Positions 32,805 through 64,000 of a stretch of DNA of 64,000 nt are shown piece after piece. The translations under genes and the position numbers were made by a program. Origin of the DNA: a virus; IMG/VR virus record IMGVR_UViG_3300032286_000272, positions 2,962-66,961 of that record; one strand, written 5' to 3'. Positions within the stretch are counted from its first letter, which is position 1, and each line of letters begins with the position of its first letter. The notes below the pieces were generated by a model. That model was not told the origin of the DNA and did no database searches. It saw nothing but the letters and a program-made list of their open reading frames with translations.

Positions 32805-34589
32805 ATGTTTAAATTAAAAAATATCAGTGTTAAAAACTTTCTGAGTGTGGGTAATCAGACTCAGGCAGTAGACTTTGACAAAGAGCATCTTACATTAGTA
32901 TTAGGCGCTAACTTAGATCTAGGCGGAGACGATACAGGAAGCCGAAACGGTACAGGAAAAACAACCATTGTTAACGCATTAAGTTATGCTCTATACGGAC
33001 AAGCGTTAACCAATATTAAAAAAGAAAACTTGATCAACAAGACCAATGGCAAGAACATGCTGGTTGCTGTTGAATTTGAGAAGTCTAGCACCAAATACAG
33101 GATTGAACGTGGTCGTAAACCCAACGTGCTTAAACTATATGTTAACGATCAAGAAATCAAATCCGAAGGTAAAGACGGAGAAGACGAAAGCCAGGGCGAC
33201 AGTCGAGAGACACAGAAGGCAATCGAACAGATGCTGGAAATGTCGCACACCATGTTCAAACATTTGGTTGCACTAAACACCTACACAGAACCGTTCCTCA
33301 GCATGAAGGCTGCGGATCAACGTGAAGTAATTGAACAACTATTAGGCATTACCCTACTGTCAGAAAAGGCAGAAGCTCTTAAAACACTTGTCAAAGAAAC
33401 CAAGGACAAGATACAGCAAGAAGAATTTAAAATTCAAGGCATTAAGACTGCTAACGAAAATGTACAAAAGAGCATTGATAGTTTAGAATTAAAAAATTCA
33501 GCTTGGGAAACAAAGAAAGATCGTGATTTAGAAAATCTCGGCAAAGCCATTGTTCAGTTAGAAAGTGTTAACATTGAAGACGAGCTGGCTGCACACATTG
33601 CTCTCAAGGCATGGGATGAACTTGATACTAAGATTCGAAACTTAAACAAGCAAAAGTCTACTTTAGAAAGCGCTGTTGTTCAAGCGCAAAAGACACGCGA
33701 CAAATATATAAAAGAAGCCGAAGCTCTAACCAACAAGACTTGTCCTGCATGTGAACAAGAATTACATGATCATAAGCACGGAGAAATGACCAATACTGCT
33801 GTGCAGCACCTTGCAGAAGCACAGACATATTTTGATAAGGTTGCAGGTGACTTGAAAAAGATCTTAACTGAACTGGGCACAGGCGAAATGCCTCACAAAC
33901 CCAACACATTTTATGATACAGAGGCAGAAGCACTGGGACACAAAAACAATCTCAATAACTTAGAACGCCAGTTGACAGAAAAGATTAACGAGCGAAATCC
34001 CTATGCTGAACAGATCGAAGAATTAAAAAAGACAGCCATTCAAGAAATCAACTGGGAAGGTGTCAATATTTTATCCAAGGCCAAAGACCATCAAGAATTT
34101 TTACTCAAGTTATTAACTAACAAAGACAGCTTTATCCGTAAAAAGATCATTGATCAAAATCTTGCCTACTTGAATAAACGGTTGGGCTACTATATTGATA
34201 AGCTAGGTCTTCCACATCGAGTGGTATTCCAAAACGATCTAAATGTAGAAATTACACAGCTAGGACAAGATTTAGATTTTGATAACCTAAGTCGAGGTGA
34301 ACGCAACAGGCTAATTTTATCTATGAGTTTTGCTTTCCGCGATGTATGGGAAGGACTATATCAAAGTATCAATTTATTGTTTATTGACGAGCTGATGGAC
34401 TCTGGTATGGATTCTGCAGGTGTTGAATCCGGACTTGCGGTCCTAAAAAAGCTGGCCAGAGACCGCAATAAGAATATATACTTAATATCACACAAAGACG
34501 AACTCGTAGGACGGGTAAACAATGTGCTACGTGTGATTAAAGAGAACGGTTTTACCAGCTATTCAAACGATGTAGACTATGTCGAATAA
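32805..34589 (+). CDS. gp46: Recombination ATPase subunit (gp46; Rad50/SbcC-like)
   Basis: Walker A NGTGKTT, coiled coil with CPAC zinc hook, signature LSRGE, Walker B LLFIDE and ISH. Confidence 0.95.
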   Translation: MFKLKNISVKNFLSVGNQTQAVDFDKEHLTLVLGANLDLGGDDTGSRNGTGKTTIVNALSYALYGQALTNIKKENLINKTNGKNMLVAVEFEKSSTKYRIERGRKPNVLKLYVNDQEIKSEGKDGEDESQGDSRETQKAIEQMLEMSHTMFKHLVALNTYTEPFLSMKAADQREVIEQLLGITLLSEKAEALKTLVKETKDKIQQEEFKIQGIKTANENVQKSIDSLELKNSAWETKKDRDLENLGKAIVQLESVNIEDELAAHIALKAWDELDTKIRNLNKQKSTLESAVVQAQKTRDKYIKEAEALTNKTCPACEQELHDHKHGEMTNTAVQHLAEAQTYFDKVAGDLKKILTELGTGEMPHKPNTFYDTEAEALGHKNNLNNLERQLTEKINERNPYAEQIEELKKTAIQEINWEGVNILSKAKDHQEFLLKLLTNKDSFIRKKIIDQNLAYLNKRLGYYIDKLGLPHRVVFQNDLNVEITQLGQDLDFDNLSRGERNRLILSMSFAFRDVWEGLYQSINLLFIDELMDSGMDSAGVESGLAVLKKLARDRNKNIYLISHKDELVGRVNNVLRVIKENGFTSYSNDVDYVE

Positions 34590-34893
34590 TGAACTAGACA
34601 AATATAAGGAACTACATAACGAATTTACTACTAGATTCGTAAAGTATTATAATAGGAACTTAGAATTTATAAACAAAGTTAGCCATGACGGCAACACTGA
34701 TCTAAAGAAGATTCTCAGAGAGATGATGGCCATCAACAAGGAGATGAGAGACAGTGTTACCGCAGTTTGGAAAGAGATGAGAGAAAACAGGAAAGAAGAA
34801 TTAGCTGCTGCAAAAGCAAAACGAAAGTTTACCAAGCCGCAACATAAACCCCCAGGAAAACCAAGGAAAATAAAAAATGACAACAACCAATGA
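34579..34893 (+). CDS. Basic helical protein, probable diverged Hc1-like paralog
   Basis: S..G.T..KK.L.E...I.K..R..VTA aligns by eye with the next ORF. Lys/Pro-rich C-terminal tail. Confidence 0.5.
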   Translation: MSNNELDKYKELHNEFTTRFVKYYNRNLEFINKVSHDGNTDLKKILREMMAINKEMRDSVTAVWKEMRENRKEELAAAKAKRKFTKPQHKPPGKPRKIKNDNNQ

Positions 34894-35074
34894 ACAACTA
34901 CAACAACAATTTGCAGAATTTCTAGCAGAGGATGCAAAGTTTACAGGCGGCAATAGTGCTGCTGGTACACGCAGTCGCAAAGCATTAGCTGAATTAGGTA
35001 AACTAGTAAAGGCTCGCCGTAACGAGATCACTGCTGAAAAGAATGCCCGTAAGGAAGCAAAAACGGCAAAATAA
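34877..35074 (+). CDS. Histone H1-like Hc1-family small DNA-binding protein
   Basis: KF..GNSAAGTRSRKALAELGKLVKARRNEI matches the Hc1-family motif (GNKAAGTRARK). AAGGA RBS upstream. Confidence 0.75.
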   Translation: MTTTNEQLQQQFAEFLAEDAKFTGGNSAAGTRSRKALAELGKLVKARRNEITAEKNARKEAKTAK

Positions 35075-35077
35075 TCG

Positions 35078-35506
35078 ATGACTTGGACCCACAAAGGATC
35101 TATAGTTAACGAACTACCCGAAGACTGTATTGGTTTTGTTTATTGCATAACCAATACAACTTCGGGACGCCAATACATTGGCAAAAAATTAGCAAAATTT
35201 AGTAAAACGACCTACAAAACTGTAAAGTTAAAGAACGGCACAAAAAAAAAGAAAAAGATCCGCAGTAAAATTGATTCGGATTGGCAAGAATATTACGGCT
35301 CCAGTGTTGAGCTGACAAAAGACATAGACGCCCTAGGCAAACAAAACTTCTCCCGCGAAATTCTCTACTATTGTAAAAGTAAAGCAGAAACATCGTACAT
35401 TGAGGCCCGCGAACAATTCGACCGCAAAGTATTAGAATCAGATGAATACTATAACGGACATATACAAGTCCGTGTCCATGGCTCTCACATAAAATCTAAA
35501 ATTTAA
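35078..35506 (+). CDS. Small stand-alone GIY-YIG family nuclease
   Basis: GFVYCITN..GRQYIGKK, YYGSS, F.REIL, candidate catalytic E (SYIEARE) and YYN. Lys-rich insertion. No C-terminal DNA-binding domain. Confidence 0.8.
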   Translation: MTWTHKGSIVNELPEDCIGFVYCITNTTSGRQYIGKKLAKFSKTTYKTVKLKNGTKKKKKIRSKIDSDWQEYYGSSVELTKDIDALGKQNFSREILYYCKSKAETSYIEAREQFDRKVLESDEYYNGHIQVRVHGSHIKSKI

Positions 35507-35519
35507 TCTAACACTTAAG

Positions 35520-35895
35520 GTTGGCGGGCCAGTTTGTAATACCGCTGTGGAAAAACCGGGGAATAACCGGACACGTGACATGATGATGCACTCCCGTCAG
35601 TTGATCTGACTATCTTGAAAAAGAAGCGAGTTTGAGGGTACGAACCATACGCCCAACGCATTGTTATAGTATGAATGTTGGCATACGAAATCACCGGCTA
35701 AGAAAACTTAGACACTAGGAACGAGGTCTAAGACGCAATATGCGAGTCGATGTAGGTTGGGAAAGATCAGAGCCCATTAGCTTACGGTGAATAACAAATA
35801 CCTACTTCCAATGTCTAGGCTGTGACAACTCACATGAAGACAACAGACGGAACCGCTCAAAACGGTTCCGTCTGACTAAAACAATCTACATGAAT
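35520..35895 (+). ncRNA. Candidate large structured non-coding RNA
   Basis: No ORF of 60 aa or more on either strand, higher GC than flanks, and more than 10 hand-identified helices including long-range and crossing pairings (see findings). Strand and ends are inferred. Confidence 0.6.
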
Positions 35896-35897
35896 CT

Positions 35898-35976
35898 TAA
35901 AGCTTCGCTTTATATCATATATAAAAACAATTGTTTCGAAGCGTTAGCTGAAGAAACAAGTGAACGCAGTTCACTT
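35898..35976. other. Cluster of short inverted repeats / mini-hairpins in AT-rich DNA
   Basis: TAAAGC-TTC-GCTTTA (35898-912), TTGTTTC..GAAACAA (35931-59) and AAGTGAAC-GCA-GTTCACTT (35958-76). Confidence 0.6.
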
Positions 35977-35985
35977 CAAGTATTA

Positions 35986-35993
35986 TATAAATA
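35986..35993 (+). promoter_or_regulatory. T4 late promoter, exact TATAAATA
   Basis: Exact consensus followed by an AGGA RBS and ATG 36021. Confidence 0.75.
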
Positions 35994-36020
35994 AAAATAA
36001 TCCACTTATAGGATAATACC

Positions 36021-36797
36021 ATGAAAATTACACAACTCCTTACTGATCTAAATGAAGCAGGTGCAAGAAGTGCGGTTCAACAAGCATCAATGAAATCAGC
36101 AGCTACAGGAACCCCACAAGCAAATAACCCTTTTAATTTAAAGGTTGTGCCTGGTGGTAAAGGAGTTGCACCTTCAACTACTGCACCTGCTGCAACAGGA
36201 ACAACTACTGCTCCGGCAGTAAAGTATAATGTTCCTACGGGTGGTGTACCTTCTGTAAAAAGTAATTTACCTCAACCAACAGTAGCTCCAAAAACTACTA
36301 CTCAGCCCGCGACAGCACCAACAACTGCTGCCCAACCTAAAGGTCCTGGTGCAATGAAGAAAGCATTAAACTATGCCAATTCTGCACAATCCGGACAAGA
36401 TATTGCAAAGTTTGGCAAAGGAATGGCAGATGCTGGCGGATCACTAAATCGAGGTGCTCAAACTGTTGTTAAAGGCACAGGTAACCTAGTCAAGGGAGTT
36501 GGTCAAGGTATTGGGTCAGCGCTTAGTGGAGTAGGTTCTGCGGTTAAAGGTGTTGGAGATGTGGCTGCTCAAACAGTAGGAGGAGTTGCACAGACTATAG
36601 GTGCTGCTGCTGGTGGCTTAAAGCATGGTTATCAAAGTGCAGGTAGTGGACAGAAATTTGGCGGAGGTGGATATAGTGGAACACCGACTGCAACACCTGC
36701 ATCTGGCGGAACACCTTCAGGCGGAAATGACGAAGTTGCAGGATTAAAAGCCACACTACAAGCCATGGATGCAAGGCTTAAGAAAGCCGGAATTTAA
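36021..36797 (+). CDS. Low-complexity Ala/Gly/Thr/Pro-rich late protein, possible internal head protein
   Basis: Own late promoter and RBS. N-terminus MKITQLLTDLNE, Gly-rich amphipathic repeats and a short C-terminal helix. Confidence 0.6.
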   Translation: MKITQLLTDLNEAGARSAVQQASMKSAATGTPQANNPFNLKVVPGGKGVAPSTTAPAATGTTTAPAVKYNVPTGGVPSVKSNLPQPTVAPKTTTQPATAPTTAAQPKGPGAMKKALNYANSAQSGQDIAKFGKGMADAGGSLNRGAQTVVKGTGNLVKGVGQGIGSALSGVGSAVKGVGDVAAQTVGGVAQTIGAAAGGLKHGYQSAGSGQKFGGGGYSGTPTATPASGGTPSGGNDEVAGLKATLQAMDARLKKAGI

Positions 36798-47013: not shown

Positions 47014-47065
47014 GTTCGCTCCGAAAGGGGAGTTTATGCGGTCCCCACCGCGTAGGCAATAGAAC
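47014..47065 (+). promoter_or_regulatory. Candidate structured 5' leader (three-way junction)
   Basis: GTTC..GAAC closing stem, CTCC-GAAA-GGGG hairpin and GTTTATGCGG-tcccca-CCGCGTAGGC hairpin. GC-rich island. Confidence 0.55.
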
Positions 47066-47089
47066 TGTCTATATTTTAAGGAGAAAAAA

Positions 47090-48259
47090 ATGGGACGTCC
47101 AATTAAAAAGAGTTTTTTTGCTAACTTGAGCAGCCCTTATCAGGATCATGCTACAGGTGGCCCAACAGGTGAAGGCGGTGAAGGAGTTGCTAGTGTAACA
47201 ATTACTACAACTGGATCTTACACAGCTACAATTCCTACAGTGAGTTTTGCTACTCCTGATTTATATCTAGGAACAACAGCAACTGGTGTTGTGCATGTTA
47301 AATCATTAAGTGCTAGCACAACAGCAAATGGTAATGGTTATACACTGGGTCAAACATTAAGTGTTTCTGGTGGTACAAAGAGTACTACAGCAACTTTTAC
47401 AACAACCGCAGTTGTAGTTGCAGCCATTACAAAAACAGCTAACGGATCGCTTTATGACAACGACAATGAAATTTGGTTTGACAGCGCAGGCTGGTCAGTA
47501 CCTCTAAAACTTGATGTTGTTAGTAATATAGGCGGTGCATTAGATACATTTACAGTATTGCAGTACGGTGTATGGAATGGCCCCGGCGCTGCTCCAACTA
47601 CTCTGACTGCTACTACAAGTAACACTCGTGGTGGTGTTGATCAAAACGCTACTGGCGCGGTATTCACATTGACATACGGTGTTTATTCTTTCAGCAGCCC
47701 AGTAGTAGTCGGTGATTATACAGCTATTCCTGCTAATCCAGCAAGCTTCACAGGAGCATCAGGTTCAGGAGCAACTGCTGAAATAGCATGGGGTGTACGC
47801 AGTGTTGAAGTTACTAATTCAGGTAGCCACTATGTTAGTGTAGCCGATGCAGCAGTAACATTTTCTAGCGGTACAGCAGCAGGTACATCTGTATTAACTG
47901 CTTTAAATGATCAAGGTATTGCAGCTTACGCTTATATTGTTGACGGTGTAGAAGGTTCTATTGTTGATATCATGAAACAAGAAGCTAGTCGTCGTTATCT
48001 AGTTAAAGAGCGTTCTGGCGTACAAGGTCAGTGCAAACTAGTTGCTAAAGCAGCCGGCGATTTAAACGTAGGCGAAATGTGCATCATTGCAACAGATACA
48101 TTAGGTAGCACATATTATGTTACAAAATTAACAACACACAGAGCAGTCTTATCTCGAGCTAACAACGGCGGCAGTGGATATTCTTTTGCCACAGGTGATG
48201 TAGCAGGATGGAATATTACTACTCCAGCAACAGGTGTTGTTACTATTACCACTGTCTAA
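47090..48259 (+). CDS. Virion structural protein (possible head decoration/fibre)
   Basis: Thr/Gly/Ala-rich beta-type composition, late promoter and strong RBS, directly after gp23. Confidence 0.6.
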   Translation: MGRPIKKSFFANLSSPYQDHATGGPTGEGGEGVASVTITTTGSYTATIPTVSFATPDLYLGTTATGVVHVKSLSASTTANGNGYTLGQTLSVSGGTKSTTATFTTTAVVVAAITKTANGSLYDNDNEIWFDSAGWSVPLKLDVVSNIGGALDTFTVLQYGVWNGPGAAPTTLTATTSNTRGGVDQNATGAVFTLTYGVYSFSSPVVVGDYTAIPANPASFTGASGSGATAEIAWGVRSVEVTNSGSHYVSVADAAVTFSSGTAAGTSVLTALNDQGIAAYAYIVDGVEGSIVDIMKQEASRRYLVKERSGVQGQCKLVAKAAGDLNVGEMCIIATDTLGSTYYVTKLTTHRAVLSRANNGGSGYSFATGDVAGWNITTPATGVVTITTV

Positions 48260-59619: not shown

Positions 59620-59638
59620 TTCTTAATCGATCTTAGAT

Positions 59639-59665
59639 AAAACGGAGCTTGAAGCTCCGTTTTTT
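59639..59665 (+). terminator. Rho-independent terminator
   Basis: AAAACGGAGCT-TGA-AGCTCCGTTTT followed by a T tract. Confidence 0.88.
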
Positions 59666-59674
59666 GTTTTTGAC

Positions 59675-59680
59675 TAAATA
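59675..59680 (+). promoter_or_regulatory. Late promoter (TAAATA)
   Basis: Lies after the terminator and upstream of ATG 59718. Confidence 0.55.
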
Positions 59681-59717
59681 TTAGAATTACTACAATGCCT
59701 GGTGGAAAGGGAAGCTG

Positions 59718-62700
59718 ATGGCAATCAACAACGATTTTAAAGTTAAACACGGCCTTGTGGTCTCAACAACGGCCACAGTTCTCGGCACAACTAATTCCAC
59801 CAACACAGAAACAGGCGCATTAATTGTATCCGGCGGCGCAGCCGTTGGTCAAGATCTTTGGGTTGGCGGTAAAATTTACGTTGATACCATAGTTGGTAAC
59901 CCTGGCTATCTTGGTAGTTCTGGTTACACTGGTAGTCAAGGCATCACCGGTTACACTGGTAGTCAAGGTGATCTAGGCTATACAGGATCAGTAGGCTACA
60001 CTGGCAGTGATGGTTATACTGGATCAGTAGGCTACACCGGCAGTGATGGTTATACTGGATCAGTAGGCTACACCGGCAGTGATGGTTATACTGGATCATT
60101 GGGTTACGTTGGATCAGTAGGCTATACTGGTAGTTCTGGTTCAAGTGGTACCGAAGGTTACACTGGATCAGTAGGTTATACTGGTTCAATTGGTTTTACA
60201 GGTAGTATTGGCTACACAGGTAGCGACGGATACATTGGTTCAGTAGGCTACACAGGTAGCGACGGATACATTGGTTCAGTAGGCTACGCTGGTAGTCGTG
60301 GTCCTAGCAATGCTATTACCGCAGCATCTGACACAAGCACTACCGTTTTATATCCGGTTTTAGTTGATCAACTAGACAGTCCGGATAGATTACCTAAAGG
60401 TAATAGTAATCTATACTTTAATGCATCTACAAATGCTCTAATTGTTAACGGCGATATTATCGCTAATAAGTTAACAATTCAATATACCACAATCACAACT
60501 ACACAAATTATAACTGATGATATATTCACAGTTTATAATACAACCAACAGCACCGGTACAAATAGTGGTGCATTAGTTGTTGCTGGCGGCGTGGGTATTG
60601 AGAAAGATCTTTGGGTTGGTGGTGTAATTTATAGAAATGGTATATCTGTCGGCTACGGCTATACAGGTAGTGAGGGGTTTACTGGTAGCATTGGATATAC
60701 TGGCAGTGATGGCTATACAGGTAGTGTCGGTTATGACGGATCTGTAGGATACACAGGTAGTGAGGGGTTTACTGGTAGTATTGGATATACTGGTAGTGAT
60801 GGCTATACAGGTAGTGTTGGTTATGACGGATCTGTAGGATACACAGGTAGTGAGGGGTTTACTGGTAGTATTGGATATACTGGTAGTGATGGATACACTG
60901 GTAGTCAAGGTGAAACGGGTTTTACCGGTAGTTCTGGTTCGTCGGGAGAAATAGGATTTACAGGCAGTCAAGGTTATGACGGCAGCGTAGGTTTTACAGG
61001 ATCGGTTGGTTATATTGGTAGTGTAGGACCACAAGGTATTAGCAGCTTTGGACGTAGATATTATTTACAGAGCGCCGACAGTGATATCAGTGGGTACGAA
61101 GAATTAACTACGTATGTTAGTACACTTACAGAAACTACCATACTGGCTACAGCTACAAATGTTTCTGGCGAAGTATTAATTGCTAGTTGGGCAACACCAG
61201 TTGCTGATCCTAACGTGACAGTATTTCCTGCAGGACAATTAGTATTTAATACTTGGTTAGCAGTAAGCACTGATGCTGGAGTATCTCAGTTTGTACACAA
61301 ACTCTATTATAGGAATACCACAGGCACTGAAGTTTTATTAGCTAGCGTTGATACTGAGGAAATTAACAATACAACACCTACGCTATACGAAACGGTATTT
61401 GTTGTACAGACAGCCACCAACATTCTGTCTACAGATAGACTGGTTTACAAGGCCTATTTTAAAACTGATAATACTAATCCCGTAATTGGATCGTTAACAC
61501 ATGACGGAACTAATCGTCAAAGTTATTTGACAACACCTATTACACAAGGTATTACAGGATATCTTGGTAGTGTGGGTTATCATGGAAGTGTGGGCTATAC
61601 TGGTTCAACAGGCTATACTGGATCGATAGGTTATACAGGTAGTGACGGATATACTGGATCGATAGGTTACATTGGATCGATAGGTTATACAGGTAGTGAC
61701 GGATATACCGGATCAGTTGGATATACCGGATCGATAGGTTATGCAGGTAGTAACGGATATACCGGGTCAGTTGGCTACACTGGATCAATTGGATTTACCG
61801 GGTCAGTTGGATTTACTGGGTCAGTTGGTTTTAACGGATCAGTAGGTTACACTGGATCGTTAGGATATATCGGATCAGTGGGTTACACTGGTTCAGTTGG
61901 ATATACCGGGTCATTGGGTTATACCGGTAGTAGCGGTACTGAAGGTTTTAACGGATCAGTAGGCTATACTGGATCAGTAGGTTTTAACGGATCAGTAGGT
62001 TATACTGGATCAGTAGGTTTTAACGGATCGGTAGGCTATACTGGTTCAATCGGATTTGCTGGTAGTGTTGGCTATACCGGATCATTAGGCTATACTGGTT
62101 CAATCGGATTTGCTGGGTCGGTAGGCTATACTGGTAGTATCGGATTTGCTGGTAGTGTTGGCTATATCGGATCATTAGGTTACACTGGTTCAATCGGATT
62201 TACTGGGTCAGTAGGTTACACTGGCAGTGTCGGATATGTTGGTAGTAATGGATATACTGGCAGTGTCGGATATGTTGGTAGTAATGGATATACTGGAAGT
62301 ACAGGATACTTTGGATCAGTTGGTTATACTGGTTCAATCGGATTTGTAGGTAGCAGAGGCCCTAGTGATGCAATTAAGGCCACAGATGACACTAGCAGTA
62401 CAGTATTATATCCAGTAATGGTAAATGCTGCTGGAGTAGATGCAACTCCCCGTCTGAGTACTTCTACACTGTATTGGAACGCACAATCTAATACATTAAA
62501 TGTTGTTGGCGAAATTGTTGCTACAAAATTAACAATCCAATATACTACAATTACAACTACTAGCGTTGTAACTGACGATGTATTCACAGTACTAAATTCA
62601 ACCAATAGTACCGGAACAAATAGCGGAGCATTGATTGTCGCCGGTGGTGCCGGAATTGTCCGAGACTTATATGTCGGCGGTCAGATTTATATTAACGGAA

Positions 62701-64000
62701 TACCTGTCGGATACGGCTATACAGGAAGTCTGGGATACTTTGGTAGTATTGGATTTACTGGATCGGTTGGATACACCGGATCGGTTGGATACACCGGATC
62801 GTTAGGATATATTGGATCGTTGGGATATATTGGATCTTTGGGGTATATTGGATCGTTGGGTTATACTGGTAGTGTTGGTTATACTGGTAGTGTTGGCTAT
62901 ACTGGTTCAGTTGGTTACACTGGTAGTGTTGGCTTTACTGGTAGTGTTGGCTTTACTGGTAGTGTTGGATACACTGGATCAGTTGGATACACTGGAAGTC
63001 TGGGATACTTCGGTAGTGTTGGCTTTACTGGTAGTGTTGGCTTTACTGGTAGTGTTGGATACACTGGATCAGTTGGATACACTGGAAGTCTGGGATACTT
63101 TGGTAGTGTTGGCTTTACTGGTAGTGTTGGATACACTGGATCAGTTGGCTATAGTGGATCGTTAGGATATATTGGATCGTTGGGTTATACTGGTTCAGTA
63201 GGTTATACTGGTTCAGTAGGTTATACTGGTTCAATTGGGTCTGCGGGTTATGTTGGTTCAAAAGGTAGCGACGGCGGCCAATTGACTGCCGGTTCGTATG
63301 TTGTTCGTGCTGTTAAGAATGGTACAACACAAACAATTACATCTAATTCTGATACCATTGTTACGCTTATAGATGATTTTGATCCTCAGGGTTGGTGGAC
63401 TCCTAATAAATTCCAACCAACAATTGCTGGTTATTATTCATTGACTGCACAAATTTGGTGGGGTGCTGGTACTATTACCAATAATCAAACCAATTTACAA
63501 TTAAAGAAAAATGGTTCTACTCAAATTGCCATTACTCAAACTCCTGTTAACGCTTCAACTGTTGGGGAATTTTTAAACTTATCTACAATTGCTTATTTCA
63601 ACGGCTCAACAGATTATGTTGAAGTAACAGCATATACTTCAAATCCAACCTCACAAGATATTAATGGTTCTGCAAGCGGAACTTGGTTTACTGCTGCATT
63701 GTATGCATACGGTCCACAAGGATACACCGGTTCAGTTGGCTATACTGGATCAGTTGGTTATAACGGATCAGTTGGTTATAACGGATCATTAGGCTATACC
63801 GGATCAGTTGGTTATACCGGTAGTGCAAGTACACAAATTGGATTTTCTGGATCAGTAGGCTACACCGGTTCGCTAGGTTACACCGGATCAACAGGCTTTA
63901 CTGGATCTCTAGGTTATAGTGGTTCGATTGGATTTACTGGGTCAGTTGGTTACACTGGTTCAATTGGATTTACTGGGTCAGTTGGTTACACTGGTTCAAT
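59718..64000 (+). CDS. Large collagen-like (Gly-X-Y) fibre protein, 3'-truncated; missing from the ORF track
   Basis: ATG 59718 gives MAINNDFKVKHGLVV..TGALIVSGGAAVGQDLWVGG, then GYTGSV/GYTGSD/GFTGSI repeats. The same frame still reads G-X-Y at the window end (>1420 aa). Confidence 0.88.
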   Translation, partial: MAINNDFKVKHGLVVSTTATVLGTTNSTNTETGALIVSGGAAVGQDLWVGGKIYVDTIVGNPGYLGSSGYTGSQGITGYTGSQGDLGYTGSVGYTGSDGYTGSVGYTGSDGYTGSVGYTGSDGYTGSLGYVGSVGYTGSSGSSGTEGYTGSVGYTGSIGFTGSIGYTGSDGYIGSVGYTGSDGYIGSVGYAGSRGPSNAITAASDTSTTVLYPVLVDQLDSPDRLPKGNSNLYFNASTNALIVNGDIIANKLTIQYTTITTTQIITDDIFTVYNTTNSTGTNSGALVVAGGVGIEKDLWVGGVIYRNGISVGYGYTGSEGFTGSIGYTGSDGYTGSVGYDGSVGYTGSEGFTGSIGYTGSDGYTGSVGYDGSVGYTGSEGFTGSIGYTGSDGYTGSQGETGFTGSSGSSGEIGFTGSQGYDGSVGFTGSVGYIGSVGPQGISSFGRRYYLQSADSDISGYEELTTYVSTLTETTILATATNVSGEVLIASWATPVADPNVTVFPAGQLVFNTWLAVSTDAGVSQFVHKLYYRNTTGTEVLLASVDTEEINNTTPTLYETVFVVQTATNILSTDRLVYKAYFKTDNTNPVIGSLTHDGTNRQSYLTTPITQGITGYLGSVGYHGSVGYTGSTGYTGSIGYTGSDGYTGSIGYIGSIGYTGSDGYTGSVGYTGSIGYAGSNGYTGSVGYTGSIGFTGSVGFTGSVGFNGSVGYTGSLGYIGSVGYTGSVGYTGSLGYTGSSGTEGFNGSVGYTGSVGFNGSVGYTGSVGFNGSVGYTGSIGFAGSVGYTGSLGYTGSIGFAGSVGYTGSIGFAGSVGYIGSLGYTGSIGFTGSVGYTGSVGYVGSNGYTGSVGYVGSNGYTGSTGYFGSVGYTGSIGFVGSRGPSDAIKATDDTSSTVLYPVMVNAAGVDATPRLSTSTLYWNAQSNTLNVVGEIVATKLTIQYTTITTTSVVTDDVFTVLNSTNSTGTNSGALIVAGGAGIVRDLYVGGQIYINGIPVGYGYTGSLGYFGSIGFTGSVGYTGSVGYTGSLGYIGSLGYIGSLGYIGSLGYTGSVGYTGSVGYTGSVGYTGSVGFTGSVGFTGSVGYTGSVGYTGSLGYFGSVGFTGSVGFTGSVGYTGSVGYTGSLGYFGSVGFTGSVGYTGSVGYSGSLGYIGSLGYTGSVGYTGSVGYTGSIGSAGYVGSKGSDGGQLTAGSYVVRAVKNGTTQTITSNSDTIVTLIDDFDPQGWWTPNKFQPTIAGYYSLTAQIWWGAGTITNNQTNLQLKKNGSTQIAITQTPVNASTVGEFLNLSTIAYFNGSTDYVEVTAYTSNPTSQDINGSASGTWFTAALYAYGPQGYTGSVGYTGSVGYNGSVGYNGSLGYTGSVGYTGSASTQIGFSGSVGYTGSLGYTGSTGFTGSLGYSGSIGFTGSVGYTGSIGFTGSVGYTGS
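59900..64000 (+). repeat. Five blocks of 18-bp-period coding repeats (GYTGSx), with 90-bp higher-order duplications
   Basis: Blocks at about 59900-60300, 60650-61040, 61550-62360, 62710-63270 and 63715-end. caggtagtgaggggttt recurs at 60664, 60754 and 60844. Confidence 0.9.

What the first reader, a model, noticed from the sequence alone, without database searches (positions are those of the whole stretch)
35078..35895. Stand-alone GIY-YIG nuclease followed by a ~375-nt highly structured non-coding element: candidate nuclease-RNA system
Seen in sequence: this is the only intergenic gap over 200 nt in a window otherwise packed with genes. It begins just after the nuclease stop codon with no terminator in between. 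Local helices found by hand are GGCGG/CCGCT (35523-46), CCGG/CCGG (35556-70), GTCAG/CTGAC (35596-610), TCTT-GAAA-AAGA (35613-24, GNRA loop), CTTAGAC/GTCTAAG (35707-32), CGCA/TGCG (35734-44), TGGG/CCCA (35758-76), TGTGA/TCACA (35821-34) and a perfect 12-bp CAGACGGAACCG/CGGTTCCGTCTG (35844-74). A long-range helix TCACCG-GCTAA (35691-701)/TTAGC..CGGTGA (35777-90) is crossed by GTAGGT (35752-57)/ACCTAC (35800-05), which would form a pseudoknot. TGGAA (35548-52)/TTCCA (35806-10) and GACAT (35577-81)/ATGTC (35811-15) could tie the 5' part to the 3' part. Established knowledge: GIY-YIG homing endonucleases such as I-TevI carry a separate DNA-binding domain, and nuclease-associated RNAs exist (HEARO, omegaRNA). 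This 142-aa protein has only the nuclease core plus a Lys-rich insertion (KTVKLKNGTKKKKKIRSK). Inference: protein and RNA may act together as a ribonucleoprotein (RNA-directed nicking, ribozyme-like element or replication primer). I do not recognise it as tRNA, tmRNA, RNase P or a group I/II intron.
Basis: partly seen in the sequence, partly recalled or inferred. Interest (0 to 1): 0.85.

Follow-up and report, generated by a model that had tools for sequence, protein, structure and literature searches.

The report
Twin-box phage RNA behind nuclease gene
The gene-free stretch behind a small DNA-cutting enzyme gene of this uncultured T4-like lake phage encodes a real, knotted RNA of about 390 bases that carries one 7-letter word twice, belongs to no catalogued RNA family, almost always sits behind this enzyme gene, and has an unknown job.

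Summary
35078-35506 (+) encodes a 142-aa GIY-YIG protein (PF19835, E 4e-33). 35507-35897 (+) is a structured RNA. Six helices show compensatory changes in 119 relatives. Rfam has no match even at E<=10.

The RNA carries two identical 7-mers (35832-38 and 35888-94) around the 12-bp hairpin. The two copies change together between phages.

Elements found by RNA motifs alone have the nuclease gene upstream in 182 of 183 cases. For a sister type that starts with Rfam Polynucleobacter-1, the figure is 40 of 41.

The ribonucleoprotein idea is unproven, and three results count against it:
- Nuclease homologs lack the RNA in five cultured phages and several close relatives.
- The RNA type switches at least 14 times on the nuclease tree.
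- Box words do not track nuclease sequence.

The job of the RNA is unknown. My best guess is a trans-acting RNA made from the nuclease operon that uses the nuclease only for transcription.

This scan has already found the same "twin-box" RNA on many other genomes.

The parts
34877..35074 (+). 65-aa Hc1-type histone-like gene, the usual upstream neighbour of the nuclease gene (context)
   Evidence: PF07432, E 9e-13. It is upstream of the nuclease in most of the 80 loci and forms the largest of 23 upstream-neighbour clusters, with 123 of 237 loci.
35078..35506 (+). 142-aa GIY-YIG nuclease: catalytic core only, no separate DNA-binding domain
   Evidence: PF19835 SegE_GIY-YIG, E 4.2e-33. phrog_447, E 5e-37. 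AF2 model with pLDDT 91.1. Best fold match is the I-TevI catalytic domain 1ln0_A (Z 8.6, rmsd 2.6, 82 aligned); T4 EndoII 2wsh_A scores Z 5.5. Y22, Y33, G35, R93, E109 and N126 are invariant in 29 homologs.
35507..35897 (+). Whole twin-box RNA, type A (about 391 nt)
   Evidence: Full-length matches in 10 of 83 loci. Model R1 scores 152.9 bits at 35743-35897 and finds no second copy above 17 bits in the window. The strand is set by G-U pairs that would be A-C on the other strand, for example 35584:35663 TG in 113 of 119 and 35848:35870 TG in 80 of 119.
35508..35681 (+). 5' domain, closed by helix H1 (35508-13 with 35676-81). Inside it: H2 35523-27/35542-46, H3 35556-59/35567-70, H4 35580-85/35662-67, H5 35596-600/35606-10, H6 35613-15/35622-24, H7 35636-39/35651-54
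   Evidence: H1 is 100% paired with 3 of 6 pairs compensatory. H3 has 4 of 4 compensatory, H4 3 of 6 (99% paired), H5 4 of 5 (present in only 24-25 of 119 sequences), H2 1 of 5. H6 (68% paired) and H7 (62%) are weak in the alignment. Slid controls are 13-62% paired. MI ranks 35508:35681, 35509:35680 and 35581:35666 among the top pairs.
35691..35790 (+). Long-range helix H8 (35691-701 with 35777-90), which encloses H9 35707-13/35726-32, H10 35734-37/35741-44 and the invariant core
   Evidence: H8b 35697-701/35777-81 has 5 of 5 pairs with compensatory changes (the pair 35701:35777 is only 8% paired); for example 35697:35781 is TA 69, GC 24, CG 24. H9 has 5 of 7. H8a (50% paired) and H10 (59%) are poorly aligned.
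35745..35810 (+). Near-invariant core. It holds the GTAGGT (35752-57) / ACCTAC (35800-05) pseudoknot pairing across H8 and the TGGG/CCCA hairpin (35758-76)
   Evidence: 60 invariant columns in 93 sequences. The pairings are 98-99% kept, with G-C to G-U changes only, so there is no covariation.
35832..35838 (+). Box 1 (ACATGAA), preceded by CTC
   Evidence: The 7-mer is identical to box 2 in 184 of 189 parsed elements. Variant words change in both copies.
35844..35874 (+). 12-bp hairpin between the boxes. Its 3' strand is invariant; its 5' strand varies through G-U pairs
   Evidence: 88% paired, with 35851:35867 AT 86 / GT 33.
35888..35894 (+). Box 2 (ACATGAA), preceded by TCT
   Evidence: MI of box positions peaks with the same position of the other box, for example 35838:35894 AA 132, TT 19.
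35898..35985 (+). Variable AT-rich spacer with small hairpins (for example around 35901-35909 and 35958-35976). Probably the end of the transcription unit
   Evidence: Conservation stops after 35897. Relatives have stable TTCG-type hairpins here. GC is 0.33-0.36.
35986..35993 (+). TATAAATA, a T4 late-promoter-like word ahead of the 258-aa gene at 36021-36797
   Evidence: Conserved as TATAAATA in 6 of 9 aligned type-A loci and in type-B loci. That this is the T4 late-promoter consensus is recalled knowledge.

Best explanation
35507-35897 (+) is a gene for a large, pseudoknotted non-coding RNA. It is the type-A form of an uncatalogued 'twin-box' RNA family of uncultured marine and freshwater T4-like phages.

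Shown: the RNA has a covarying two-domain fold, a near-invariant core, and two identical 7-nt boxes around a hairpin.

Inferred: it is transcribed with, or from within, the GIY-YIG gene, as the last element of an early or middle operon. That operon ends in an AT-rich spacer just before a late promoter.

My best guess at function: the RNA works in trans on its own. The invariant core is a binding or catalytic platform. The two matched boxes are two equivalent contact sites for one partner, either a bivalent or dimeric factor or a nucleic acid met twice. That partner is not the neighbouring nuclease.

On this reading the constant place behind the nuclease gene reflects a shared transcription unit and inherited gene order. 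Different RNA types are swapped in as alleles at that one slot.
For: Real RNA:
- Compensatory changes in H1, H3, H4, H5, H8b and H9 of 119 sequences, against slid controls of 11-62% paired (MI).
- G-U pairs fix the + strand.
- 60 invariant core columns in 93 sequences, although the nucleases are only 52-94% identical.

Uncatalogued:
- No Rfam match at E<=10 in the window.
- 0 matches at gathering score in 18 type-A loci.
- No blastn match in 50,697 phage records.

Twin boxes:
- 184 of 189 parsed elements have identical 7-mers.
- There are 10 different words among 169 elements.
- The divergent members L120 and L128 carry quite different 10-mers, again identical within each RNA.

Independence from the nuclease:
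- The RNA type changes at least 14 times on a 162-row nuclease tree, and nucleases 96.5% identical carry types A and B.
- 27 of 99 nuclease pairs at 95% identity or more differ in box word, while 1749 of 6521 pairs under 62% share it.
- The nuclease occurs without the RNA.
- The basic stretch is a family feature.

Same operon:
- No + strand terminator lies between the ORF and the RNA.
- H1 starts 2 nt after the stop codon.
- In marine relatives the nuclease ORF runs into the conserved RNA leader.
Against: - The adjacency is stronger than that of the flanks. The neighbours fall into 23 upstream and 35 downstream clusters, yet the RNA is behind the nuclease in 182 of 183 and 40 of 41 cases. That fits a functional pair as well as a shared operon.
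- No partner for the boxes was found. Within -1200 to +700 nt only 6 scattered exact complements turned up.
- The core pairings are invariant, so they are unproven by covariation.
- Transcription is not shown. Only contigs from RNA libraries were available, and those may hold DNA.
- The proposed function is inference only.
Confidence: 0.45

Rival explanations
1. The RNA and the GIY-YIG protein form a ribonucleoprotein. The RNA would be a cofactor, guide, decoy or inhibitor of the nuclease, made in cis at a fixed ratio.
For: The RNA-to-nuclease linkage is 182 of 183 (type A) and 40 of 41 (type B) in elements found by RNA motifs alone. It holds across nucleases 52-94% identical and across variable flanks. 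The protein has only the catalytic core with no DNA-binding domain and a basic stretch. No terminator lies between the two.
Against: Nuclease homologs lack the RNA in 5 of 5 complete cultured phage genomes searched and in close relatives. L120 has the RNA without the nuclease. Neither the RNA type nor the box word tracks nuclease sequence. RNA-less homologs have the basic stretch too. An unrelated ORF can sit between the two. There is no hypervariable guide.
Confidence: 0.2
2. A replication-origin RNA. The structured transcript would form a persistent hybrid in the AT-rich DNA just downstream and prime DNA synthesis, like ColE1 RNA II or T4 origin transcripts. The nuclease would be a bystander or would nick nearby.
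For: An AT-rich, hairpin-rich spacer follows directly (GC 0.33-0.36). The locus lies beside recombination and replication genes, with an SbcC-like gene at 32805-34589. Earlier notes of the scan raised the same idea. This rests on analogy only.
Against: No test here bears on it. The spacer is variable in sequence. T4 origin transcripts are not known to need a 390-nt conserved fold (recalled). The twin boxes are left unexplained.
Confidence: 0.1
3. A self-processing or rearranging RNA. The two boxes would be equivalent cut-and-join or take-off and landing sites, so that the 56-nt hairpin segment is removed by a ribozyme, an endonuclease plus ligase, or a polymerase jump.
For: Identical direct repeats around a stable hairpin are what re-pairing mechanisms need (established for T4 gene 60 bypass and for slipped mispairing; recalled). 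The identity of the boxes is under selection.
Against: One RNA-library contig (X3 record 19, 35768-35908) spans both boxes with the hairpin in place, and no joint was seen in 4 runs. The hairpin's 3' strand is invariant, which argues that it is kept in the working RNA. No guide strand complementary to the boxes was found. Translation is unlikely, because box-to-stop distances fall in all three frames in the rows I could check.
Confidence: 0.08
4. A cis-acting untranslated element: a 3' stabiliser or terminator of the nuclease operon, or a regulator of the downstream late gene.
For: It lies at the end of an operon and before a late promoter-like word.
Against: Its size, two-domain fold, pseudoknot and 60 invariant columns far exceed what such elements need. 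The downstream gene varies, with 35 clusters. The late promoter lies between the RNA and that gene.
Confidence: 0.1
5. Not an RNA gene: a decayed C-terminal domain of a longer Seg-type endonuclease, or chance structure.
For: Seg and I-TevI enzymes carry a DNA-binding domain that is missing here (recalled).
Against: Homologs are all 140-152 aa. The substitutions keep base pairs, not codons. No ORF is conserved.
Confidence: 0.01

Closest known systems
Polynucleobacter-1 RNA motif (Rfam RF01718; Weinberg et al. 2010, PMC2864571; I saw only its table row, through a term search)
   Same: It sits at the same place, directly behind the same nuclease gene in sister phages, scoring 80-119 bits in 10 of 18 loci. 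Those 'type B' elements continue for about 300 nt and end in the same module: CTC-box, hairpin, G-T-(C/G)-TGAC, TCT-box. The 3'-core model R1 aligns that module weakly in L068 (E 0.012). The function is unknown for both.
   Different: The window's RNA does not match RF01718 even at E<=10. The 5' domain and the core sequences differ. RF01718 covers only the first 141 positions of type B.
Large ornate phage-linked RNAs of unknown function (GOLLD, ROOL) and HEARO, the omega RNA of IscB
   Same: It is a large, multi-helix, pseudoknotted RNA carried by phages. Like HEARO it lies next to a nuclease gene.
   Different: No Rfam match to any of them. It is smaller than GOLLD and ROOL (sizes recalled). 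The nuclease is GIY-YIG, not HNH/RuvC. There is no variable guide at either end.
I-TevI and Seg-type GIY-YIG homing endonucleases, and T4 endonuclease II (for the protein)
   Same: The GIY-YIG fold: I-TevI catalytic domain Z 8.6, EndoII Z 5.5. Pfam SegE_GIY-YIG. Its length is like that of EndoII, 142 aa against a 134-residue chain.
   Different: There is no linker or DNA-binding domain. The gene has a fixed, syntenic position rather than a sporadic one. No sequence-level match to EndoII in the PDB.
T4 gene 60 bypass element with MobA (recalled: Bonocora et al. 2011, not read here)
   Same: A short insert with a hairpin, flanked by matched words, lies beside a phage endonuclease gene.
   Different: Here the host sequence is a non-coding RNA. 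No reading frame is kept, and no skipped form was seen.

Membership tests
GIY-YIG nuclease superfamily (Pfam PF19835 SegE_GIY-YIG) | Profile match above the curated cut-off | tested here: met
   114.6 bits against a cut-off of 25, E 4.2e-33, covering profile positions 1-123 of 123.
GIY-YIG nuclease superfamily (Pfam PF19835 SegE_GIY-YIG) | GIY-YIG fold with conserved Tyr, Tyr, Gly, Arg, Glu and Asn | tested here: met
   AF2 pLDDT 91.1. 1ln0_A Z 8.6, 9u75_A 7.3, 1ycz_A 5.6, 2wsh_A 5.5. Y22, Y33, G35, R93, E109 and N126 are invariant in 29 sequences. Their catalytic roles are recalled, not tested.
Homing endonuclease of the I-TevI / Seg type | Separate C-terminal DNA-binding domain | tested here: not met
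   The protein is 142 aa and the fold match spans residues 18-129. 188 unique homologs are 140-152 aa long.
Homing endonuclease of the I-TevI / Seg type | Sporadic presence at variable positions, or inside an intron | tested here: not met
   The position is syntenic behind the Hc1-like gene in most loci. No gene is interrupted.
T4 endonuclease II (DenA) | Sequence or fold closer to EndoII than to other GIY-YIG enzymes | tested here: inconclusive
   No PDB sequence hit with the single sequence or the profile. Fold Z is 5.5 against 8.6 for I-TevI. In Melnitz and Syn9 the homolog lies downstream of nrdB, as denA does in T4 (recalled).
Polynucleobacter-1 RNA (RF01718) | Covariance-model score of 37 bits or more | tested here: not met
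   No match in the window at gathering score or at E<=10. The model does fire on sister loci.
tmRNA, RNase P RNA, tRNA | ARAGORN or Rfam model match | tested here: not met
   ARAGORN finds 0 genes in the window and in 18 loci. No Rfam match. The Melnitz tmRNA is a different gene elsewhere in that genome (passages read).
Group I intron | Rfam RF00028 match and an interrupted host gene | tested here: not met
   No match at E<=10. The flanking ORFs are complete.
HEARO / omega RNA-type guide RNA | Conserved scaffold plus a hypervariable guide segment at one end, next to an IscB or TnpB gene | tested here: not met
   No Rfam match. The ends are conserved, or variable without a pattern. The only matched variable word is 7 nt, and 130 of 169 elements carry the same one. 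The nuclease is GIY-YIG.
Type III toxin-antitoxin RNA (ToxI-like) | Tandem array of repeats processed by the toxin | tested here: not met
   TRF finds only four tiny rows (period 10-12, about 2 copies, score 34-38) in 35000-36300.
Twin-box phage RNA (this scan's working name; not a published family) | Near-invariant core word, two identical boxes behind CTC and TCT, and a hairpin with an invariant 3' strand between them | tested here: met
   R1 scores 152.9 bits at 35743-35897. The boxes are at 35832-38 and 35888-94. The hairpin is at 35844-74.

The most novel reading that the evidence does not exclude
The RNA is a cofactor of the minimal GIY-YIG enzyme. The conserved scaffold would hold the enzyme, which has no DNA-binding domain of its own. 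The two identical boxes would address the two strands, or two half-sites, of one nucleic-acid target. That would make an RNA-addressed GIY-YIG nickase pair, a kind of RNA-directed nuclease not yet described. The swapping of RNA types and box words between near-identical nucleases would then be exchange of specificity modules, not evidence of independence.
Probability: 0.07. Interest if true: 0.95.

Novelty: new variant of a known kind. Interest (0 to 1): 0.66.

Why it matters
T4-like phages of lakes and oceans are among the most abundant viruses known. This 390-nt RNA has a core that is almost letter-perfect across phages whose neighbouring protein is only half identical. Conservation of that degree marks a molecule with an exacting job, such as a ribozyme, a mimic of a host RNA, or a platform for a conserved machine.

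The RNA is absent from Rfam and from all 50,697 deposited phage genomes searched here. It is therefore invisible to standard annotation and has no laboratory model.

The twin boxes are short, identical and co-changing, which is an unusual constraint. They give a direct experimental handle: change one box, then both.

The work also places the orphan Polynucleobacter-1 motif. It is the 5' domain of a sister form of the same phage RNA slot. Its 'Burkholderiales' label may come from phage DNA binned into bacterial genomes.

Tried and rejected
1. Known RNA families. Rfam at gathering score on the window, at E<=10 on 34500-36500 and on 18 type-A loci gave nothing in the element. ARAGORN gave nothing.

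2. Melnitz tmRNA lead (recalled, then checked). The paper's passages place the ssrA gene elsewhere, at gene 86 against gene 43 for the nuclease. Model R1 finds nothing in the whole Melnitz genome.

3. Decayed C-terminal domain. Rejected: homologs are 140-152 aa, and the covariation keeps base pairs, not codons.

4. A cis partner for the boxes. Exact complements within -1200 to +700 nt gave 6 scattered hits in 169 elements. MI of box columns peaks only with the other box. The segment 35806-16 does not change with the box. No exact complement of the 10-mers occurs in L120 or L128; the nearest have one mismatch.

5. Avoidance of the box word in the phage genome. The count was 4 against 13.1 in dinucleotide shuffles. 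The deficit vanishes under higher-order Markov models (4.3-5.4 expected) and is explained by general CATG depletion.

6. A small ORF or ribosome hop starting at box 1. My regex mis-parsed most of the 125 rows (only 33 start at ATG). In the correctly parsed rows that I could see, box-to-TGA distances were 38-50 nt in all three frames, so I dropped the idea.

7. A skipped RNA form. No joints appeared in 4 RNA-library runs, which were contigs only. Uncovered parts of the stretch in those runs say nothing.

8. A protein that replaces the RNA in RNA-less loci. The ORFs behind the nuclease there are unrelated to each other: a membrane protein, a zinc-ribbon primase-like protein and others (by eye, no family search).

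9. DenA orthology. No sequence support; the fold is closer to I-TevI.

10. The 92-aa ORF between nuclease and RNA in L027. No Pfam or PHROG family.

11. The careful tree did not finish in time, so I used FastTree. The labels were wrong, because type-A variants were counted as B. One search corrected them, and only one search is used.

12. Literature. Searches found no description of this RNA. For PMC10690425, the catalogue of more than 10,000 viral RNA candidates, I searched only the main text for terms.

13. I did not run complex prediction, because it offers no protein-RNA test. I did not run R-scape, because it is not installed.
Full report
WHAT IS THERE. The window is part of a 66,961-nt IMG/VR virus record with T4-like genes, including an SbcC/gp46-like ORF at 32805-34589. 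The ORF 35078-35506 (+) encodes a 142-aa protein that matches Pfam SegE_GIY-YIG over the whole profile (E 4.2e-33) and phrog_447. An AlphaFold model built from 29 homologs is confident (pLDDT 91.1). Its best structural match is the I-TevI catalytic domain (1ln0_A, Z 8.6, rmsd 2.6 over 82 residues). T4 endonuclease II scores Z 5.5. The residues of the GIY-YIG motifs are invariant. The protein has no second domain. tblastn finds homologs of similar length in 508 deposited phage records, mostly cyanophages and other T4-like phages, and the best named one is Methylophilales phage Melnitz at 52%. Behind the stop codon come 514 nt without a convincing ORF. No + strand terminator-like site lies in between.

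IS IT AN RNA? The stretch folds better than shuffles on both strands, which by itself proves little. Relatives decide the question. The nuclease protein brought in 80 IMG/VR loci, and 10 of them carry the same element at 77-90% identity. Their alignment shows many paired changes. I aligned 119 unique full-length elements and counted pairs for the helices.
- H1 35508-13/35676-81: 100% paired, 3 of 6 pairs with changes on both sides.
- H3 35556-59/35567-70: 4 of 4.
- H4 35580-85/35662-67: 99% paired, 3 of 6.
- H5 35596-600/35606-10: 4 of 5. This hairpin is present in only 24-25 of the 119 sequences.
- H8b 35697-701/35777-81: 5 of 5 pairs with some compensatory change, though the last pair (35701:35777) is only 8% paired.
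- H9 35707-13/35726-32: 5 of 7.
With the 3' partner slid by 1-2 columns, only 11-52% of cells in these six helices stay paired. An independent mutual-information scan of 167 sequences ranks the same pairs on top. Frequent G-U pairs would be A-C on the other strand, so the RNA is read from the + strand. The 3' core (35745-35810) is almost invariant, with 60 invariant columns in 93 sequences. Its GTAGGT/ACCTAC pseudoknot pairing and TGGG/CCCA hairpin are therefore compatible with the data but unproven by covariation. Conservation ends at about 35897. After that come a variable AT-rich spacer with small hairpins and a TATAAATA word at 35986-93 ahead of the next gene. That this word is the T4 late-promoter consensus is recalled knowledge.

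Most hand-found helices are right. The GACAT/ATGTC tie is not: 35581 covaries with 35666 (TA 88, CG 31), not with 35811. TGGAA/TTCCA is invariant and cannot be tested. 'The only gap over 200 nt' is wrong, because five other ORF-free stretches of 231-383 nt lie at 59.6-63.7 kb. The Lys-rich stretch is a family feature. A basic stretch stands at that place in marine homologs, in Melnitz, ACP17, S-SRM01 and Syn9, and in L082, which has no RNA.

TWIN BOXES. The word ACATGAA occurs at 35832-38 behind CTC and again at 35888-94 behind TCT, on either side of the 12-bp hairpin. In 184 of 189 parsed relatives the two 7-mers are identical; 5 further rows of that call were mis-parsed. Ten different words occur among 169 elements: ACATGAA in 130, ACATGAT in 11, ACATAAT in 10, ACGTGAA in 6, and six rarer ones. 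Box columns share information only with the same column of the other box. Two divergent members found with model R1 carry quite different 10-mers, each present twice. I found no complementary strand in cis. The word is not avoided in the genome once local composition is allowed for. No frame is conserved for a peptide (with the parsing fault told above). No skipped form appears in RNA-library contigs; one contig spans both boxes with the hairpin in place. Two alternative pairings are possible in all 119 sequences but are invariant: the core loop 35767-71 with 35871-75, and GTAGGT with 35884-89. They would compete with the lower hairpin stem and with the pseudoknot, so a conformational switch is possible but untested.

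A SISTER TYPE. Of 62 unique downstream stretches from the first 80 loci, 51 form a second cluster, 9 are like the window, and 2 are a protein-coding gene. The second cluster starts with Rfam Polynucleobacter-1 (80-119 bits in 10 of 18 loci scanned). It runs on for about 300 nt and ends in the same CTC-box, hairpin, TCT-box module with other words such as GGATGAT and AGATAAT. The window does not match RF01718. Weinberg et al. 2010 list that motif only as a candidate cis-regulatory RNA of Burkholderiales and fresh water; I saw only the table row. In GTDB genomes the nuclease gene turns up almost only on contigs of metagenome bins from unrelated phyla, among them two 'Polynucleobacter' bins. This looks like phage DNA binned by mistake.

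LINKAGE TO THE NUCLEASE. Of 216 loci found by the two type-A words, 182 have a nuclease homolog (52-93% identical) directly upstream on the same strand. In about 30 of these it stands some 240-360 nt further upstream, where L015, L027 and L061 hold an extra small ORF between the two. 27 loci are too short and 7 have none. Of those 7, six matched only the 16-mer inside long ORFs and are chance hits, and L120 is a real element without the gene. That gives 182 of 183. For type B, a 15-letter word found 119 loci. 45 of them have twin boxes. Of these, 37 have the nuclease within 700 nt, 3 have it 0.9-1.4 kb upstream, 1 has none, and 4 are too short. 72 loci are chance hits and 2 are cut off. That gives 40 of 41. 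The flanks are less constant, with 23 upstream and 35 downstream neighbour clusters.

The reverse direction is weaker:
- Model R1 finds nothing near the homologs of Melnitz, ACP17, Variovorax phage V45v66, S-SRM01 and Syn9, nor anywhere in their complete genomes.
- Among 50 GTDB loci, R1 hits 3, with a fourth weak hit in L312 (E 0.095), and RF01718 hits 3 of the 20 scanned.
- The twin-box signature is seen in 11 of 45 such loci, while many others have a protein gene directly behind the nuclease, including L303 (78%) and L304 (74%).
- blastn finds the RNA in none of 50,697 deposited phage genomes.

DO THEY EVOLVE TOGETHER? No. On a FastTree of 162 nucleases the RNA type (A or B) changes at least 14 times, and nucleases 96.5% identical (L018, L027) carry different types. 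27 of 99 nuclease pairs at 95% identity or more have different box words, and 1749 of 6521 pairs under 62% share one. The slot behind the nuclease is thus filled by exchangeable RNA alleles.

READING. The shown facts are a real, large, pseudoknotted RNA gene of an uncatalogued family, co-oriented with a minimal GIY-YIG gene and nearly always behind it. The facts fit two readings. In the first, the two share only a transcription unit and an inherited position. In the second, they work together through features common to both RNA types. Smaller shares go to an origin primer RNA, a self-processing RNA and a cis element. The job of the RNA is not known, and the 'two equivalent contact sites' role of the boxes is inference.

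EARLIER NOTES OF THIS SCAN. The same RNA has been reported many times on other genomes under the name 'twin-box'. I reached the fold, the boxes, the RF01718 kinship and the linkage from my own calls before or apart from reading those notes. I took over their name. The tests for co-evolution, the motif-first linkage counts for both types and the whole-genome searches of cultured phages are my own.

Noticed in passing
window 47017-47092 (+): Match to Rfam freshwater-2 RNA (RF02980), 60.3 bits against a gathering score of 49.9. It is the only Rfam hit in the window.
   Followed up: no
window 34877-35074 (+): A 65-aa Hc1-type (chlamydial histone H1-like) protein gene in a T4-like phage (PF07432). 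It is conserved directly upstream of the nuclease in 123 of 237 related loci. A 'histone H1' gene is also annotated in Synechococcus phage S-SRM01.
   Followed up: partly
window 59620-63687: Five ORF-free stretches of 231-383 nt by a mechanical cover with ORFs of 50 aa or more. They may hold small genes or further RNAs.
   Followed up: no
L303-L352 (GTDB genome contigs): The nuclease gene, often with the RNA, lies on contigs of metagenome bins named after unrelated phyla (Saccharibacteria, Bifidobacterium, Neomarinimicrobiota, Pacearchaeota, two Polynucleobacter bins). These are most likely phage contigs binned by mistake. This may explain the 'Burkholderiales' label of RF01718.
   Followed up: partly
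L027 3426-3704 (also L015, L061 and about 25 further loci): A 92-aa ORF with no Pfam or PHROG family lies between the nuclease gene and the RNA in L027, and an ORF of 93-106 aa stands at that place in L061 and L015. In L027 the RNA again starts at that ORF's stop codon.
   Followed up: partly
marine relatives, e.g. L087, L091, L094 (about 20 nt upstream of the RNA's H1 helix): The nuclease ORF's variable C-terminal tail is encoded by a conserved RNA leader (GGCAAAAC..CCAACAC). The ORF and the RNA therefore overlap there, and the RNA 5' end probably lies inside the ORF.
   Followed up: no
window 35767-71/35871-75 and 35752-57/35884-89: Two alternative pairings are possible in 119 of 119 sequences. 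They exclude the lower hairpin stem and the pseudoknot, so they may form a switch. All the columns are invariant, so this is untested.
   Followed up: partly
window 35508: A 151-nt contig from an RNA library (run X1, record 5, 3 mismatches) begins exactly at 35508, the first base of helix H1. A single contig proves no RNA end.
   Followed up: no
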